In this document: positions 1,596 through 59,436 of the stretch, piece by piece | How the letters are laid out: each line of letters begins with the position of its first letter | Position numbering within the stretch: the stretch's first letter is position 1 | Origin: Atribacterota bacterium | GTDB lineage: Bacteria > Atribacterota > Phoenicimicrobiia > Phoenicimicrobiales > Stramentimicrobiaceae | Length of the DNA stretch: 64,000 nucleotides | Reading direction: 5' to 3' | Assembly (NCBI GenBank): GCA_028717805.1 | Contig: JAQUNC010000005.1 | Span: 1,238 to 65,237 of the forward strand | Translations under genes and position numbers: made by a program | Notes under the pieces: model-generated | What the model saw: only the letters and a program-made list of their open reading frames with translations | Database searches by the model: none | Told to the model about the DNA's origin: nothing

Positions 1596-1625
1596 ATACT
1601 CAAGGGGAATAATTCCCTGGAGTAT
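1596..1625 (+). repeat. GC-rich hairpin element, copy F (ATACTCAAGGGGAATAATTCCCTGGAGTAT)
   Basis: CAAGGGGAA/TTCCCTG core nested in an ATACTC/GAGTAT outer stem, 26 nt upstream of the S4-protein gene. Confidence 0.4.
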
Positions 1626-1650
1626 ATTTAAGGATTGAAATAAGAAACTG

Positions 1651-16598: not shown

Positions 16599-16848
16599 TT
16601 ATTAAACAAATAATCTACTTAAACTAATGATATTGTAACTAAAATTAATTATTCTGTAATAATGTATTTGTTATCAAATTGTTAATCCATATTTTTTATG
16701 TTAAAATAATTGGCAAAAGAATTTTTGAAATTATATTTACTTGGTAAAATTTTTGATAAAATATCAGCAACACATTATTTTTATTATCAAGATGAACTGA
16801 AAACCAAAAACGCAATACAAACAACGCACTACTATATACTAATTAATT

Positions 16849-16886
16849 GAGGGGTTTCAGGGGATACTTCCCCTGACAATATCATG
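16849..16886 (+). repeat. GC-rich hairpin element, copy A (GGGGTTTCAGGGGA-TAC-TTCCCCTGACAATATCATG)
   Basis: Perfect 8-bp inverted repeat TCAGGGGA/TCCCCTGA in an AT-rich spacer 12 nt upstream of tRNA-Arg. Its flanks are shared with copies B through F. Confidence 0.5.
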
Positions 16887-16897
16887 TTCGGTTTCGA

Positions 16898-21881: not shown

Positions 21882-22100
21882 CTGCCAAAGGAACAGAACC
21901 AAGAATTAATATTATTTTTTGAGGTTGTTTGAAAAAAATAAATAATTAGTGATAAAATATGATTGAGCTTATAATATAAATAAATTCTGGCTTAAAGTAA
22001 ACCCATCTTAATCTATATTTAACTGGATAAGGATTTTTATTAACTTTATAAAAAAGAAGACATTAAAGGAATTAATAAATATTAAGCTCGTGATTGACTT

Positions 22101-22139
22101 AGGGGTTCTCAAGGGGAATTCTTCCCCTTGAATATCCTG
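22101..22139 (+). repeat. GC-rich hairpin element, copy B (AGGGGTTCTCAAGGGGAATTCTTCCCCTTGAATATCCTG)
   Basis: Inverted repeat CAAGGGGAA/TTCCCCTTG; 5' GGGGTT and 3' AATATCCTG flanks as in copy A. It lies 67 nt upstream of rpoN. Confidence 0.5.
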
Positions 22140-22205
22140 TAGATAAGTTAGTCTCATTGAAATAATAACAAAATGTTTATTTATAATTAGTTAGAGGGTA
22201 TTTTA

Positions 22206-26001: not shown

Positions 26002-27045
26002 ATGGTTGCAAATAAGAAAATGTATACCACTGACGAAATAAAGCATTATCAAGTTGAACCTGACCGAAGATTATTTTCTGCTAATCATGAAGAAATTGAA
26101 AGAGGATTAACTACTGATATTTATTTTATTAGAGCAATAGAGGTCCTTAATTTCTTGAAACTGGATGCTACAGAGGTTACTGCAGAAATATTTGCCAGGC
26201 GAGCAGGAATTTTTGCTGGTGTGCAGGAAGCATATAATTTGCTCAAAGATAAAAAGATCAAACTTTGGTCACTACAAGAAGGGAATTCATTTCAACCCAA
26301 AGAAACAGTAATGAGAATCCAGGGTCCCTATAATGAATTTGGAGTTTATGAAACAATAATATTAGGGATATTAGCCAGCAGTTCTGCCTGGGCAACTGCA
26401 GCACGGGAATGCTGTGAGGTCGCAAATGGTAAAAAAATTATCTGTTTTGGCTCGCGGCATATTCATCCAGCTGTTGCTCCTGTTATGGAAAGAGCAGCAC
26501 TTATTGGAGGAGTGGATGGAGCAAGTTGTGTACTGGGAGCAAAATTGATGGGGCAAGAACCCCAAGGTACTATTCCACATACTGTAATAATAATTACCGG
26601 GGATACAGTGAAAGCAGCAAAAGCTTATCATGAGTGTTTTTCTCCGGATATACCCAGAGTAATTTTGATAGATACCTTCAAAGATGAGGCTGAAGAATCA
26701 ATTAGGGTTGCTAATGCTTTGGGCAAGAGCCTTCTGGGTGTCCGTCTTGACACTCCAAGTGAAAGAGGAGGGGTATCCCCTGATTTGGTTAAAGAGGTAC
26801 GAGCACGATTAGATCAGGCAGGATATGCTCATGTTAAGATTTTTGTTTCAGGAGGAGTAACACCAGAGAGAATTGTTTTATTAAGCAAGGAAGCTGTTGA
26901 TGCCTTTGGAGTGGGTAGTTACATTAGCGATGCCTCACCCATTGATATGACTCTTGATATTAAGGAAGTTGAAGGGAAGCCTATTGCCAAAAGAGGGCGG
27001 ATACCTGGTAAAATTGAAAACAAGAATTTAGTTCAATTAATTTAG
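26002..27045 (+). CDS. Nicotinate phosphoribosyltransferase, archaeal-type (class II short form)
   Basis: 347 aa. The stretches I remember as conserved in Thermoplasma/Pyrococcus-type NAPRTases are present (DIYFIRA, GTIPHTVIIITGD, VSGGVT, GKPIAKRG). Confidence 0.75.
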   Translation: MVANKKMYTTDEIKHYQVEPDRRLFSANHEEIERGLTTDIYFIRAIEVLNFLKLDATEVTAEIFARRAGIFAGVQEAYNLLKDKKIKLWSLQEGNSFQPKETVMRIQGPYNEFGVYETIILGILASSSAWATAARECCEVANGKKIICFGSRHIHPAVAPVMERAALIGGVDGASCVLGAKLMGQEPQGTIPHTVIIITGDTVKAAKAYHECFSPDIPRVILIDTFKDEAEESIRVANALGKSLLGVRLDTPSERGGVSPDLVKEVRARLDQAGYAHVKIFVSGGVTPERIVLLSKEAVDAFGVGSYISDASPIDMTLDIKEVEGKPIAKRGRIPGKIENKNLVQLI

Positions 27046-35485: not shown

Positions 35486-35568
35486 TATCGAAATTTCTTT
35501 GAAGTTTTGATATTGCTAAAGATAATTTATTTACATAATCTATATAGAAGAAGTGTTCAGATATTCCT

Positions 35569-35597
35569 AAGGGGAAGAATTCCCTAGGGATATCCTG
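35569..35597 (+). repeat. GC-rich hairpin element, copy C (AAGGGGAAGAATTCCCTAGGGATATCCTG)
   Basis: AGGGGAA...TTCCCT inverted repeat with the shared 3' GATATCCTG tail. It sits inside the 217-nt gap between mbhM and mbhN. Confidence 0.4.
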
Positions 35598-37430: not shown

Positions 37431-37458
37431 TAGGGGGGAATATCCCCTGACTATTTTG
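37431..37458 (+). repeat. GC-rich hairpin element, copy D (TAGGGGGGAATATCCCCTGACTATTTTG)
   Basis: GGGGGAATATCCCC hairpin with a TGAC tail, 21 nt upstream of the SPOR gene. Confidence 0.4.
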
Positions 37459-37478
37459 ATTAAAGGAGGGGCATATCT

Positions 37479-58887: not shown

Positions 58888-59232
58888 GAATCAGAACTCC
58901 ACCTGAGAATCGATTGTGGTTCGACCATAGAATCTTACCTTGCTCTCTTGATTAAAGATAATTTTTATTAATTAGTTTGCCTTATTAGCAGCTATTATTT
59001 TCAAAATAAATATTTACTAAAAATATCAGGCAAATAATATTTCTGGTATATTTTACCTGGAAAAAATCATGAAATTATCAAAGTTAGATTGCTAAATAAA
59101 TGGAATGTATTATATAATTACGCCAGATCCATTTGAGGCTTTGAAATATCGTCTAAAAATATAATAACACAAAAAATCATTTACGGTAGAAAGAAATATT
59201 ATTTTTTTATATTTTAGAAAACATGTTATCAT

Positions 59233-59290
59233 TATTTCATAGTAGGGGAAATTTTTTGAATTTCCCCTACTATGAAATAATCTTTTTTAA
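59233..59290. repeat. Perfect 22-bp-stem palindrome with an AGGGGAA/TTCCCCT core plus a T-tract (orphan terminator-like)
   Basis: TTATTTCATAGTAGGGGAAATT-TTTTG-AATTTCCCCTACTATGAAATAA followed by TCTTTTTTAAA. No gene end lies nearby. Confidence 0.5.
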
Positions 59291-59398
59291 ATAAACTAAA
59301 TAAGGTACAATAATACTATATTTGATTCTAAAGGTATATAATTACTAAAATTGTTATAACTCAGGTATAAATGGAGTTCATTATATAATTATTTAAAA

Positions 59399-59436
59399 CA
59401 AGGTATTCAGGGAAGGTATCCCCTGAAACCCCCCAA
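59399..59436 (-). repeat. GC-rich hairpin element, copy E (reverse orientation: GGGGGGTTTCAGGGGATACCTTCCCTGAATACCTTG)
   Basis: The reverse complement matches copy A almost position-for-position. Confidence 0.5.

What the first reader, a model, noticed from the sequence alone, without database searches (positions are those of the whole stretch)
16849..16886. Dispersed family of oriented GC-rich hairpin elements (core AGGGGA-N3-9-TCCCCT) located 5' of genes
At least six copies occur in AT-rich regions immediately upstream of the next gene. A (16849-16886) precedes tRNA-Arg/argS. B (22101-22139) precedes rpoN. C (35569-35597) lies inside the Mbh operon before mbhN. D (37431-37458) precedes the SPOR gene. 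E (59399-36, reverse orientation) lies between the divergent transporter and mreB. F (1596-1625) precedes the S4 gene. They share a 7-9 bp G4/C4 inverted repeat. Copies A, B and E also share a 5' GGGGTT(T/C)TCA lead and a 3' (A)ATATC(C)TG tail, which is more conservation than a random terminator would show. None has a U-tract, so they are not intrinsic terminators. The orientation relative to the downstream gene is conserved in 5 of 6 copies. This points to a cis-regulatory RNA structure, an operator for a dimeric DNA-binding protein overlapping promoters, or a small MITE/REP-like repeat. I do not recognise it as any named motif.
Basis: seen in the sequence. Interest (0 to 1): 0.75.

Follow-up and report, generated by a model that had tools for sequence, protein, structure and literature searches.

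The report
REP-like hairpin repeats in an Atribacterota genome
The six hairpins are copies, three intact and three decayed, of a short palindromic DNA repeat that has spread through the spaces between genes in Atribacterota, so it is a variant of a known kind of bacterial repeat (REP/BIME) and not a conserved gene switch.

Summary
The hairpins exist where stated. Only A (16849-16887), B (22101-22142) and E (59396-59434, minus strand) are statistically secure members of one family (40-50 bits). C and F are decayed copies of a second subtype, and D is weaker. The window comes from an Atribacterota MAG. Related MAGs carry the element at very high density: 113 copies in 340 kb of loci that were selected for containing it. 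These copies form head-to-tail mosaic arrays that are almost all intergenic, mostly point at the next gene and often end 2-60 nt before its start codon. Copies A and B are missing from the same sites in six related genomes. At site A the insertion ends exactly at the element's tail (...ATATCATG|). Two 96%-identical genomes differ by one 78-nt unit bounded by ...ATATCTTG|. One high-copy genome has a RayT-type (REP-associated Y1/HUH) transposase gene flanked by copies, but that protein family normally pairs with GTAG-type REPs, so this link is only suggestive. The best reading is a REP/BIME-like mobile palindromic repeat with an unusual GGGGTT tag and an upstream, oriented placement. No Rfam family matches. 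An unexpected result is that the same GGGGTTTCAGGGGA hairpin occurs in several other phyla, beside relaxase genes in Clostridia, and in giant-virus contigs.

The parts
16849..16887 (+). Copy A, intact a-type element. Lead GGGG 16851-16854; stem TCAGGGGA/TCCCCTGA 16857-16864 and 16869-16876; loop TACT; tail CAATATCATG 16877-16886. It ends 12 nt before tRNA-Arg(CCT).
   Evidence: CM R1 49.9 bits, E 1.7e-8. Sequence read. ssDNA fold -8.1 and RNA fold -15 kcal/mol. An orthologous copy is present in the same-species genome L178.
16713..16886 (+). A 174-nt lineage-specific insertion between the conserved tRNA-Arg promoter and the tRNA. Copy A forms its 3' end, and the right junction is ...ATATCATG|TTCGG.
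   Evidence: Relatives L099, L100 and L309 have the promoter TGTTAAAAT, then about 20-25 nt, then the tRNA. The junction was inferred by eye from these alignments.
16679..16707 (+). Conserved sigma-70-type promoter of tRNA-Arg/argS (TTGTTA-17-TAAAAT with TG), lying upstream of copy A.
   Evidence: Promoter scan. The same sequence is conserved in L098, L099, L100, L307 and L309.
22101..22142 (+). Copy B, intact b-type element. Lead GGGGTT 22102-22107; stem-loop TCAAGGGGAA-TTC-TTCCCCTTGA 22109-22131; tail ATATCCTG 22132-22139. It ends 64-67 nt before the rpoN start codon (22206).
   Evidence: CM R1 39.9 bits. The core matches the b-type consensus from other genomes with 0 mismatches on the minus strand, meaning the loop is flipped. 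Folds -9.9 (DNA) and -21.3 (RNA) kcal/mol.
21929..21958 (+). Conserved promoter upstream of rpoN (TTGAAA-18-TAAAAT with TG). Copy B lies about 140 nt downstream of it, so it sits in the transcribed leader if this promoter is used.
   Evidence: Promoter scan. The sequence is shared with L098 and L307.
59396..59434 (-). Copy E, intact a-type element on the minus strand, in the 740-nt divergent spacer between the CitMHS transporter gene (-) and mreB (+).
   Evidence: CM R1 50.4 bits. Sequence read. One mismatch to the a-type core.
35567..35597 (+). Copy C, a degenerate b-type copy without the GGGGTT lead, with tail GATATCCTG. It lies between the NADHdh-like (mbhM) and Fer4 (mbhN) genes.
   Evidence: b-type core with 3 mismatches against 0.01 expected. 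CM score at noise level. Pfam of the neighbours.
1600..1630 (+). Copy F, a degenerate b-type copy without the lead, between lysS and an S4-domain gene.
   Evidence: b-type core with 2 mismatches. CM 11.4 bits, E about 1. Fold z-score -3.9.
37431..37462 (+). Copy D, a possible degenerate a-type copy. Its 5' arm reads GTAGGGGGG, and its 3' arm plus tail reads TCCCCTGACTATTTTG. It lies about 17 nt before the SPOR gene start.
   Evidence: 3' half plus tail with 2 mismatches. CM 10.1 bits. This is the weakest of the six.
59242..59270 (.). A separate GTAG-tagged perfect palindrome, GTAGGGGAAATT-TTTTG-AATTTCCCCTAC, of classical REP type. It is not part of the GGGGTT family but lies in the same spacer as copy E.
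   Evidence: Pattern search: 1 hit against 0.00 expected. Sequence read.

Best explanation
The hairpins belong to a lineage-specific family of short (about 36-40 nt core), sequence-conserved, oriented palindromic repeats. The family behaves like the REP/BIME elements of proteobacteria.

Anatomy of an intact unit:
- a 5' tag, (G/C)AG-GGGTT(T);
- an 8-10 bp G4/C4 stem-loop: a-type TCAGGGGA-N4-TCCCCTGA, or b-type TCAAGGGGAA-N3-TTCCCCTTGA;
- a 3' tail, ATATC(T/C)TG.

In some Atribacterota these units combine with other short modules into head-to-tail arrays in intergenic DNA. In this window they occur as single copies. A and B are lineage-specific insertions into the regions between conserved promoters and tRNA-Arg/argS and rpoN.

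Inferred mechanism (not shown). The units spread as single-stranded DNA through a hairpin-recognising HUH/Y1 nuclease such as the RayT found next to copies in one high-copy genome. Cutting and joining would occur just 3' of the (C/T)TG at the end of the tail. The tag-hairpin-spacer-cleavage-site layout is that of an IS200/IS605 right end or a REP.

Consequence for the host (inferred). Once inserted, most copies are co-transcribed with the downstream gene as a stable 5'-leader hairpin (-15 to -21 kcal/mol as RNA). This may be tolerated or mildly useful, and would explain why copies that point at the next gene and sit near its start are the ones retained.
For: Shown:
1. Three intact copies plus three degenerate ones are in the window.
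2. There are 113 copies in 340 kb of pattern-selected loci from related MAGs. 115 of 116 copies are intergenic, and copies within a locus almost always share a strand.
3. The arrays have a mosaic, modular architecture.
4. A and B are absent at orthologous sites in L098, L099, L100, L101, L307 and L309, although the flanking promoters and genes are conserved. A is present in the same-species genome L178.
5. Boundaries are sharp. The 174-nt insertion at site A ends exactly at the tail ...ATATCATG|. L103 and L110, which are 96% identical, differ by one 78-nt unit bounded by ...ATATCTTG| on both sides, and they also show whole-hairpin replacements.
6. The stem is invariant in sequence and shows no covariation. 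This fits a young or protein-recognised DNA repeat better than an old structured RNA.
7. A RayT-like gene at L110 2253-2852 is preceded by a b-type copy whose tail ends about 10 nt before the ATG, and is followed by another copy 288 nt downstream (HUH motif PNHLHGI, catalytic Tyr motif IREYILNNP; PDB 4ER8 hit; NCBIfam NF047646 E=1e-18; homologues named RayT). L227 shows the same arrangement.
8. In homologues of that RayT, cognate REPs occupy the same flanking positions.
9. No Rfam family matches.

Inferred: mobilisation as ssDNA, cleavage after TTG, and any role as a 5'-leader RNA hairpin.
Against: - The RayT link rests on one lineage, and L110 was retrieved because it contains the repeat.
- That RayT family's own REPs are GTAG-GGGCG palindromes, one of which sits in-frame inside the L110 rayT gene. 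This type is otherwise absent from the Atribacterota loci.
- None of the 84 other loci searched that carry a RayT homologue has the GGGGTT element.
- No RayT, IS200-type TnpA or relaxase gene lies in the window, and the rest of the source genome could not be searched.
- The placement is unlike classical REPs: copies are upstream of genes, absent from convergent spacers, and arranged head-to-tail instead of as inverted dimers (PMC3733652).
- A strong bias towards pointing at the downstream gene, including in 4 of 5 divergent spacers, would also be expected of a selected cis-acting RNA element.
- Some copies are conserved between species with 75% nucleotide identity, for example the one upstream of tRNA-Lys in L111 and L135.
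- The 78-nt indel could equally arise by recombination between neighbouring repeats.
Confidence: 0.55

Rival explanations
1. A selected cis-acting RNA element of 5' leaders. The hairpin, extended by pairing of lead and tail, is transcribed with the downstream gene. It either protects the mRNA or pre-tRNA 5' end against RNases or serves as the binding site of a global RNA-binding regulator. Copy number grew because the module is useful.
For: - A and B lie downstream of conserved promoters and upstream of the gene.
- In 116 copies, 45 sit in tandem spacers co-oriented with both flanking genes against 6 antisense to both; 9-10 sit in divergent spacers against 0-1 in convergent spacers. The last copy is often 2-60 nt from the start codon, while the upstream stop is typically about 300 nt away.
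- In 4 of 5 divergent spacers the copies lie nearer the gene they point at.
- The RNA folds are stable, and lead-tail pairing appears in B and E.
- Copies upstream of tRNA-Lys are retained across 75%-identity species.
Against: - A and B are absent at orthologous sites in six related genomes.
- There is no covariation.
- Up to 7 tandem copies occur before one gene, and array length is polymorphic.
- Six copies are antisense to both neighbours; for example L181 3683-4020 begins 14 nt after the ilvD stop.
- In L110 a good promoter lies between the element and tRNA-Pro, so that copy is not in the leader.
- The downstream genes have no common theme.
Confidence: 0.2
2. A portable promoter or operator. 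The tail hexamer (TATCTT, TATCAT, TATCCT) acts as a -10, the lead (TTGTCA in b-type, TTTCAG in a-type) acts as a -35, and the palindrome in the spacer serves as an operator.
For: - All six window copies carry a TAYNNT hexamer 3-5 nt after the stem.
- The a-type spacing TTTCAG-17-TATCTT is canonical, and the b-type carries TTGTCA.
- The tail-to-start-codon distances of 20-60 nt resemble leader lengths.
- Copy A's hexamer ends 13 nt before tRNA-Arg, similar to the native promoter in relatives.
Against: - The hexamers are weak. The a-type -35 matches 2 of 6 positions, and the b-type spacing is 21 nt.
- The consensus scan did not call promoters in the elements, although it did call the conserved native promoters upstream of A and B and one downstream of the element in L110.
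- This lineage's conserved promoters read TTGnnn-17-TGnTAAAAT, which is unlike the tail.
- Tandem arrays of up to 7 promoters are implausible.
Confidence: 0.08
3. Terminator or insulator hairpins that end read-through from the upstream gene. These would be non-canonical terminators, or Rho or NusG assisted.
For: - The consensus scan flags several copies in L110 as terminator-like, because the tail ATATCTTGTT(T) is T-rich.
- Many copies are followed by a second AU-rich hairpin and a T-rich stretch.
- The stems are G+C-rich in an AT-rich genome.
Against: - There is no U-tract directly after the stem in A, B or E.
- Copies are far from upstream stops (median about 300 nt) and close to downstream starts.
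- None lies in a convergent spacer, where terminators are most needed.
- A and B sit between a promoter and its gene.
Confidence: 0.07
4. Dispersed oriT-like nick sites. The element mimics the inverted repeat plus nick region of a MobA/VirD2-type relaxase, and is spread or used by a conjugative relaxase instead of a RayT.
For: - The identical 25-nt GGGGTTTCAGGGGA..TCCCCTGA hairpin lies directly beside nikA/mobC-like plus MobA/VirD2 relaxase genes in at least four distinct Clostridia elements.
- The tails of B and C are ATATCCTG, placed 8 nt after the stem. From my own knowledge, this is the layout of the IncP/Ti nick region YATCCTG|Y.
- Lachnospiraceae elements carry GCGTATCTTG|CC after a second hairpin.
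Against: - No relaxase gene lies in the window or in 255 kb of Atribacterota loci.
- No mechanism is known by which relaxases scatter hundreds of oriT copies.
- The similarity was partly imposed by the search pattern, and tails outside Atribacterota are not conserved.
Confidence: 0.05

Closest known systems
REP / BIME elements with RAYT (TnpA-REP) transposases of Enterobacteria and Pseudomonas; the GTAG- and CGTC-tagged REP superfamilies (PMC3733652, PMC3116915, PMC3479197)
   Same: - Imperfect palindromes of 20-40 nt with a conserved unpaired tag at one end.
- High copy number, confined to intergenic DNA.
- Mosaic clusters with linker modules, as in BIMEs.
- Concerted sequence conservation.
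- A single-copy RayT-like Y1/HUH gene embedded among copies in one genome.
   Different: - The tag is (G/C)AGGGGTT, not GTAG or CGTC.
- There is a conserved 8-nt 3' tail.
- Units are arranged head-to-tail on one strand instead of as inverted REPIN doublets.
- Copies lie mainly upstream of, and pointing at, genes, and are missing from convergent spacers. Classical REPs lie mainly downstream of ORFs and in convergent spacers.
- The neighbouring RayT belongs to a family whose own REPs are of GTAG type.
Right ends of IS200/IS605 elements and their MITE derivatives (PATEs)
   Same: The layout, read 5' to 3' on one active strand, is: short guide or tag, subterminal hairpin, spacer, cleavage site at the very end. 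Insertion junctions follow a short motif (..TTG|) with no target duplication visible. There is a strong strand bias.
   Different: No left end, no tnpA or tnpB within the unit, and no evidence of a defined two-ended element. Cleavage has not been demonstrated.
oriT nick regions of MOBP/VirD2-type relaxases, and pC194 / phiX174 / IS91-type HUH nick sites (own knowledge)
   Same: An inverted repeat followed about 8 nt later by ATCCTG or ATCTTG. The same hairpin sequence sits next to relaxase genes in Clostridia.
   Different: There are many dispersed copies, no relaxase nearby, and no transfer genes in the window.
Correia/NEMIS, ERIC, RUP and the GC clusters of yeast mitochondria (G+C-rich mobile palindromes in A+T-rich genomes)
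   Same: Small non-coding palindromic repeats inserted near genes, co-transcribed with them, and able to alter their expression.
   Different: Those elements have terminal inverted repeats and target duplications (MITEs), or sequence families unrelated to this one.

Membership tests
REP/REPIN-RAYT system | Short (20-40 nt) imperfect palindrome able to form a stem-loop | tested here: met
   An 8-10 bp stem within a 36-40 nt unit. ssDNA folds are -7.5 to -9.9 kcal/mol, with z-scores of -2 to -3.5.
REP/REPIN-RAYT system | High copy number, confined to extragenic DNA | tested here: met
   113 copies in 340 kb of related loci, and 115 of 116 intergenic. These loci were chosen for containing the motif, so the density is biased upward. 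The window itself has only 3 intact copies in 64 kb.
REP/REPIN-RAYT system | Conserved GTAG (or CGTC) tetranucleotide tag at one end | tested here: not met
   The tag is (G/C)AG-GGGTT(T). Only the separate palindrome at 59242-59270 carries GTAG.
REP/REPIN-RAYT system | Cognate single-copy RAYT gene flanked by the repeats | tested here: inconclusive
   The RayT-like gene at L110 2253-2852 (and in L227) is flanked by copies. However, its internal REP is of GTAG type, and 84 other loci carrying RayT homologues lack the element. No RayT lies in the window, and the rest of the source genome was not searchable.
REP/REPIN-RAYT system | Inverted doublets (REPINs) as the replicating unit | tested here: not met
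   Copies within a locus share a strand and lie head-to-tail 78-140 nt apart.
REP/REPIN-RAYT system | Located mainly downstream of ORFs, in unidirectional and convergent spacers (PMC3733652) | tested here: not met
   0-1 copies in convergent spacers against 9-10 in divergent ones. Copies lie closer to the downstream start than to the upstream stop.
IS200/IS605-derived MITE (PATE) | Two different ends (LE and RE), each with a subterminal hairpin, and insertion 3' of a specific tetra- or pentanucleotide | tested here: inconclusive
   Right-end-like anatomy and junctions after ..TTG| were seen at two polymorphic sites. No left end was defined.
Intrinsic (Rho-independent) terminator | G+C-rich hairpin immediately followed by a U-tract, placed after a gene | tested here: not met
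   No T-run follows the stem in A, B or E. The terminator scan finds nothing at A or B. The placement is upstream of genes.
Any Rfam RNA family | Score at or above the gathering threshold of a curated covariance model | tested here: not met
   Only tRNAs were found in the window. There was nothing at the motif in 18 loci from several phyla, nor in E-value mode.
oriT of a MOBP/VirD2-type relaxase | Inverted repeat plus nick sequence, adjacent to relaxase and accessory genes on a mobile element | tested here: not met
   B and C carry IR + ATATCCTG, but no relaxase homologue lies in the window or in the Atribacterota loci. The feature is met only in the Clostridia loci.
Conserved cis-regulatory element (riboswitch or leader) | Conservation at orthologous positions, with covariation supporting the structure | tested here: not met
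   The element is absent at sites A and B in six relatives. There are 0 compensatory pairs in 95 distinct sequences.

The most novel reading that the evidence does not exclude
The GGGGTT-tagged G4/C4 hairpin may be a third, previously unsorted superfamily of tagged palindromic repeats, alongside the GTAG and CGTC REPs. On this reading it is recognised by HUH nucleases and spread across domains of mobile DNA.

The same lead-plus-hairpin occurs in:
- Atribacterota arrays;
- REP-like hairpin clusters of Oscillospiraceae and Acetobacteraceae/Rhodospirillales;
- inserts of about 150 nt behind tRNA genes in Nitrospirota, flanked by a duplicated tRNA 3' end;
- the presumed oriT, next to MobA/VirD2 relaxase genes, of Clostridia mobilisable elements;
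- a very abundant repeat in giant-virus MAG contigs, and two groups of phage contigs.

If one enzyme logic, or one ancestry, links these, then dispersed bacterial REP-like repeats, conjugative origins and viral repeats would be variations on a single hairpin substrate.
Probability: 0.2. Interest if true: 0.75.

Novelty: new variant of a known kind. Interest (0 to 1): 0.45.

Why it matters
REP-type repeats and their RayT partners have been characterised almost entirely in Proteobacteria. There they carry GTAG or CGTC tags, form inverted doublets and sit behind genes. This study finds a high-copy family in a largely uncultured phylum with a different tag, a conserved tail that looks like an HUH cleavage site, head-to-tail mosaic arrays, and a marked preference for the upstream side of genes.

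This matters in three ways:
- It widens the known design space of such repeats.
- It gives a concrete substrate to test with a candidate enzyme: ssDNA carrying tag, hairpin and ATATCTTG, with the RayT of UBA6794.
- It warns annotators that G+C-rich hairpins before genes in Atribacterota MAGs are repeats, not riboswitches or terminators.

The recurrence of the same hairpin at relaxase genes and in giant-virus contigs is unexplained and could be followed up cheaply.

Tried and rejected
1. Rfam. Gathering mode on the window and on 18 loci, and E-value mode on a Nitrospirota locus, gave no family at the motif.
2. Literature search for the sequence string returned only unrelated primers.
3. BLAST of the Lachnospiraceae version against the phage and plasmid collections gave no match.
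4. CRISPR array. Rejected: the spacings of 77-92 nt are whole repeated units with identical 'spacers'.
5. tRNA-related structure. Several copies abut tRNA genes, but the hairpin has no T-arm features, and many copies are unrelated to tRNAs.
6. Sigma-70 promoter within the element. The hexamers are weak, and the scan places the real promoters elsewhere.
7. Hammerhead-like core (CUGANGA) in the tail. It does not fit (read by eye).
8. Test of whether RayT homologues in other phyla carry the GGGGTT element. None of 84 loci do; they carry GTAG-GGGCG REPs instead. This weakened my initial RayT argument.
10. Covariation. The stem is invariant, so this is uninformative.
11. My first reading of the viral-contig scan as chance-level was wrong and was corrected.
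12. GC-skew orientation test. It is confounded with gene strand in 8-kb loci, so it cannot separate a replication-linked bias from a transcription-linked one.
Full report
**Source and setting**

The window is part of contig JAQVGP010000007.1 of an Atribacterota MAG (GCA_028696625.1). It has about 35% G+C, positive GC skew throughout, and nearly all genes on the + strand.

**Checking the observation**

- The strict core AGGGGA-N-TCCCCT occurs only in A and B (0.02 expected).
- A looser pattern gives 9 hits against 2.4 expected. One of these lies in the coding sequence of nadC and is conserved as coding sequence in a relative.
- I built a covariance model (R1) from 54 copies found in other genomes. 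Scanning the window without filters, A (49.9 bits), E (50.4) and B (39.9) stand far above everything else. F, D and C score at noise level.
- C and F nevertheless match the core consensus of a second subtype, derived independently from other genomes (TCAAGGGGAAGAATTCCCC). They have 3 and 2 mismatches, where 0.01 such hits are expected.
- D matches the 3' arm plus tail of the first subtype with 2 mismatches.

The window therefore holds three intact and three decayed copies. The intact unit reads (G/C)AG-GGGTT(T) | stem-loop | ATATC(T/C)TG. The a-type stem is TCAGGGGA/TCCCCTGA (copies A and E). The b-type stem is TCAAGGGGAA/TTCCCCTTGA (copy B).

**Orthologous sites in relatives**

Using YvcK, which is encoded between A and B, I fetched syntenic loci from genomes at 86, 86, 79, 77, 70 and 57% YvcK identity. 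The gene order oppF, tRNA-Arg, argS, rapZ, yvcK, whiA, rpoN is conserved, but neither A nor B is present. A filter-free model scan of 79 kb of these loci gives only one marginal hit elsewhere.

Two promoters are conserved:
- TTGTTA-17-TGTTAAAAT upstream of tRNA-Arg;
- TTGAAA-18-TGATAAAAT upstream of rpoN.

In L099, L100 and L309 the tRNA-Arg promoter lies about 20-25 nt before the tRNA. In the window a 174-nt insertion (16713-16886) separates them, and it ends exactly with the tail of copy A (...ATATCATG|TTCGG). A genome of the same species (L178, 96.5% identical over 8 kb) has copy A. A and B are therefore recent, lineage-specific insertions that now lie between a promoter and its gene.

**The family in other genomes**

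About half the listed loci are Atribacterota MAGs (UBA6794, Ca. Oleihabitans oleiphilus and others), with up to nine copies per 8-kb locus by the model (at most five by the exact pattern).

Model R1 finds 113 copies in 340 kb of these loci. They form mosaic arrays of several parts: a-type and b-type units; a second hairpin built on the tail (TATCTTGTT..AACAAGATA); and several linker modules, including ATACT heptad repeats, a CCTCTCCCTTAGAAGGGAGAGG hairpin and others.

Placement of the 116 copies (including the window's three):
- 115 are intergenic.
- 45 lie in tandem spacers co-oriented with both neighbours, and 6 are antisense to both.
- 9-10 lie in divergent spacers, and 0-1 in convergent ones.
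- The last copy of an array is typically 2-60 nt from the next start codon, whereas the upstream stop is typically about 300 nt away.
- In 4 of 5 divergent spacers the copies lie nearer the gene they point at.

104 of 116 copies have their top strand on the G-rich strand, but this is confounded with gene strand.

The 8-bp outer stem is essentially invariant (95% paired, no compensatory change). This is uninformative about RNA structure and fits a young or sequence-recognised repeat.

**Signs of mobility**

L110 (UBA6794) and L103 (Oleihabitans) are 96% identical over the aligned stretch, yet they differ in three ways:
- one 78-nt unit, bounded on both sides by ...ATATCTTG|;
- replacement of whole hairpin interiors (GGGGAAACCTCCCC against GGGGGCGAAGCTCC) in two copies each;
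- a 95-nt module.

Together with the junction at site A, this suggests units are added or removed at the end of the tail, just after TTG. Recombination between neighbouring repeats could also produce the indel.

**A candidate enzyme, with a caveat**

A tblastn with E. coli RayT (sequence from memory) hit L110. The ORF at 2253-2852 has the HUH motif (PNHLHGI) and the tyrosine motif (IREYILNNP). Its only PDB match is TnpA-REP 4ER8. It matches NCBIfam REP_Tyr_transpos at E=1e-18, below the curated cut-off. It has thousands of homologues, many labelled RayT or PF01797. A b-type copy ends immediately upstream of the gene (its tail about 10 nt before the ATG), and another copy lies 288 nt downstream. 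The independently fetched L227 shows the same arrangement.

When I examined 84 loci encoding homologues (44-64% identity, other lineages), none had the GGGGTT element. Many instead carry a GTAG-type REP (GTAGGGGCG...CGCCCCTAC) upstream, downstream and in-frame inside the ORF at a fixed position. The Atribacterota rayT also contains such an internal GTAG REP, yet that REP type is otherwise absent from 255 kb of Atribacterota loci.

The argument that the flanking position in L110 is where homologues keep their cognate REPs is real. It is weakened by this mismatch and by the fact that L110 was retrieved through the repeat itself. No RayT, IS200-type TnpA or relaxase lies in the window, and the rest of the source genome could not be searched.

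**Mechanism**

Shown: a repeated, sequence-conserved, oriented, intergenic palindromic unit, with lineage-specific insertions and sharp boundaries at its tail.

Inferred: the order tag, hairpin, about 5-nt spacer, then (C/T)TG at the extreme 3' end is that of substrates of HUH single-strand nucleases. From my own knowledge these include IS200/IS605 right ends, REP/RayT, the pC194 and phiX174 nick site CTTG|ATA, IS91 targets CTTG/GTTC, and the MOBP nick YATCCTG|Y. I therefore propose spread as single-stranded DNA by such an enzyme.

After insertion, most copies would be co-transcribed as a stable 5'-leader hairpin (RNA -15 to -21 kcal/mol, with lead-tail pairing in B and E). Selection or insertion bias would retain those that point at the next gene.

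**Rival explanations**

- A selected 5'-leader RNA element remains possible (0.2).
- A portable promoter is unlikely (0.08): the hexamers are weak and the real promoters lie elsewhere.
- A terminator or insulator is unlikely (0.07): there is no U-tract and the placement is wrong.
- A dispersed oriT mimic is speculative (0.05).

**Comparison with what is known**

The element works like REP/BIME. It fails three descriptive features of classical REPs: the GTAG or CGTC tag, inverted doublets, and placement downstream of genes or in convergent spacers (PMC3733652). The RayT criterion is inconclusive. I file it as a new variant of a known kind.

**Unexpected cross-phylum recurrence**

The pattern scan also returned the same 25-nt (G)GGGTTTCAGGGGA-loop-TCCCCTGA, usually preceded by an unforced RAG, in the following places:
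- hairpin clusters of Oscillospiraceae and Acetobacteraceae/Rhodospirillales;
- inserts of about 150 nt behind tRNA genes in three Nitrospirota, flanked by a duplicated tRNA 3' end;
- directly beside nikA/mobC-like plus MobA/VirD2 relaxase genes in at least four different Clostridia elements.

A looser scan of viral contigs, which I first misjudged as chance, in fact contains one abundant giant-virus-MAG repeat, GGAGGGGTTAAAGGGGAAC(GTAG/TACG)TTCCCCTTA, and two phage-contig families with the same lead-plus-hairpin layout. By my own rough, uncomputed estimate, this many independent families sharing both the GGGGTT lead and the AGGGGA stem is more than chance should give. I cannot say whether it reflects common ancestry, a shared enzyme logic or a structural reason.

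Noticed in passing
window 59242-59270 (wider palindrome 59229-59279): A perfect GTAG-tagged palindrome, GTAGGGGAAATT-TTTTG-AATTTCCCCTAC, followed by TAATCTTTTTT. It is a classical REP-type (or bidirectional-terminator-like) hairpin in the same 740-nt spacer as copy E, and the only one of its kind in the window (0.00 expected).
   Followed up: partly
L006-L097 (IMG/VR contigs), e.g. L028 2998-3078, L021, L054: An abundant repeat in giant-virus MAG contigs, aGGA-GGGGTT(A/T)(A/T)AGGGGAAC(GTAG|TACG)TTCCCCT(T/A)A. The loop occurs in both flip states, and sometimes there are tandem copies 28 nt apart. It has the same lead-plus-hairpin design as the Atribacterota element. Two phage-contig families (L019/L042/L080/L082/L087 and L037/L044/L088/L097) also share the design.
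   Followed up: no
L112 4552-4577, L139 3191-3216, L173 4901-4925, L175 3178-3202 (also L177, L151, L169, L147, L145): In Clostridia the identical GGGGTTTCAGGGGA..TCCCCTGA hairpin sits immediately beside nikA/mobC-like and MobA/VirD2 relaxase genes of mobilisable elements, and is sometimes preceded by iteron-like repeats. It is probably the oriT inverted repeat. In Lachnospiraceae a second hairpin ends in GCGTATCTTG|CC.
   Followed up: partly
L107, L119 (7430-7710, minus strand), L134 (1760-1935, minus strand): In three Nitrospirota MAGs the hairpin is part of a structured insert of about 150 nt directly behind a tRNA gene, followed by a duplicated copy of that tRNA's T-arm, acceptor 3' strand and CCA. 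This is an att-like duplication with no integrase in between. There is no Rfam match.
   Followed up: partly
L110 2522-2551 (inside rayT 2253-2852); L233, L241, L243, L249, L251: Members of this RayT family carry a GTAG-GGGCG...CGCCCCTAC REP palindrome in-frame inside their own ORF (encoding VGA..P(L/T)Q-like residues) at a fixed position. In several lineages it is identical to the REPs that flank the gene.
   Followed up: partly
L098 6840-7290 and L307 2860-3240 (between the tRNA-Arg promoter and the tRNA): In two other Atribacterota, the same spot that received copy A in the window holds a different insertion of about 450 nt made of TAGTT/TAGTCGTTGG-type short repeats. The promoter-to-tRNA leader appears to be an insertion hot spot.
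   Followed up: no
L163 32-215 (Clostridia MAG): Three or more exact tandem copies of a 79-nt unit containing the hairpin, at a contig end. It is a tandem repeat, not a CRISPR array.
   Followed up: no
window 26769-26781: AGGGGTATCCCCT inside the nadC (QRPTase) coding sequence matches the loose hairpin pattern, but it is conserved as coding sequence in relative L101 (17985-17997). It is a false positive of pattern-based searching.
   Followed up: yes
L098 18442-18520: Two adjacent, diverged hairpins (GGGTTTTCAAGGGAGAGGATTCCCTTAATGAACTG and GGGATTCATAAAGGGGGAACTCCCTTTATGAATTG) lie upstream of mnhE in a relative. The first is the only marginal family hit (21.8 bits) in the syntenic loci of relatives.
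   Followed up: partly
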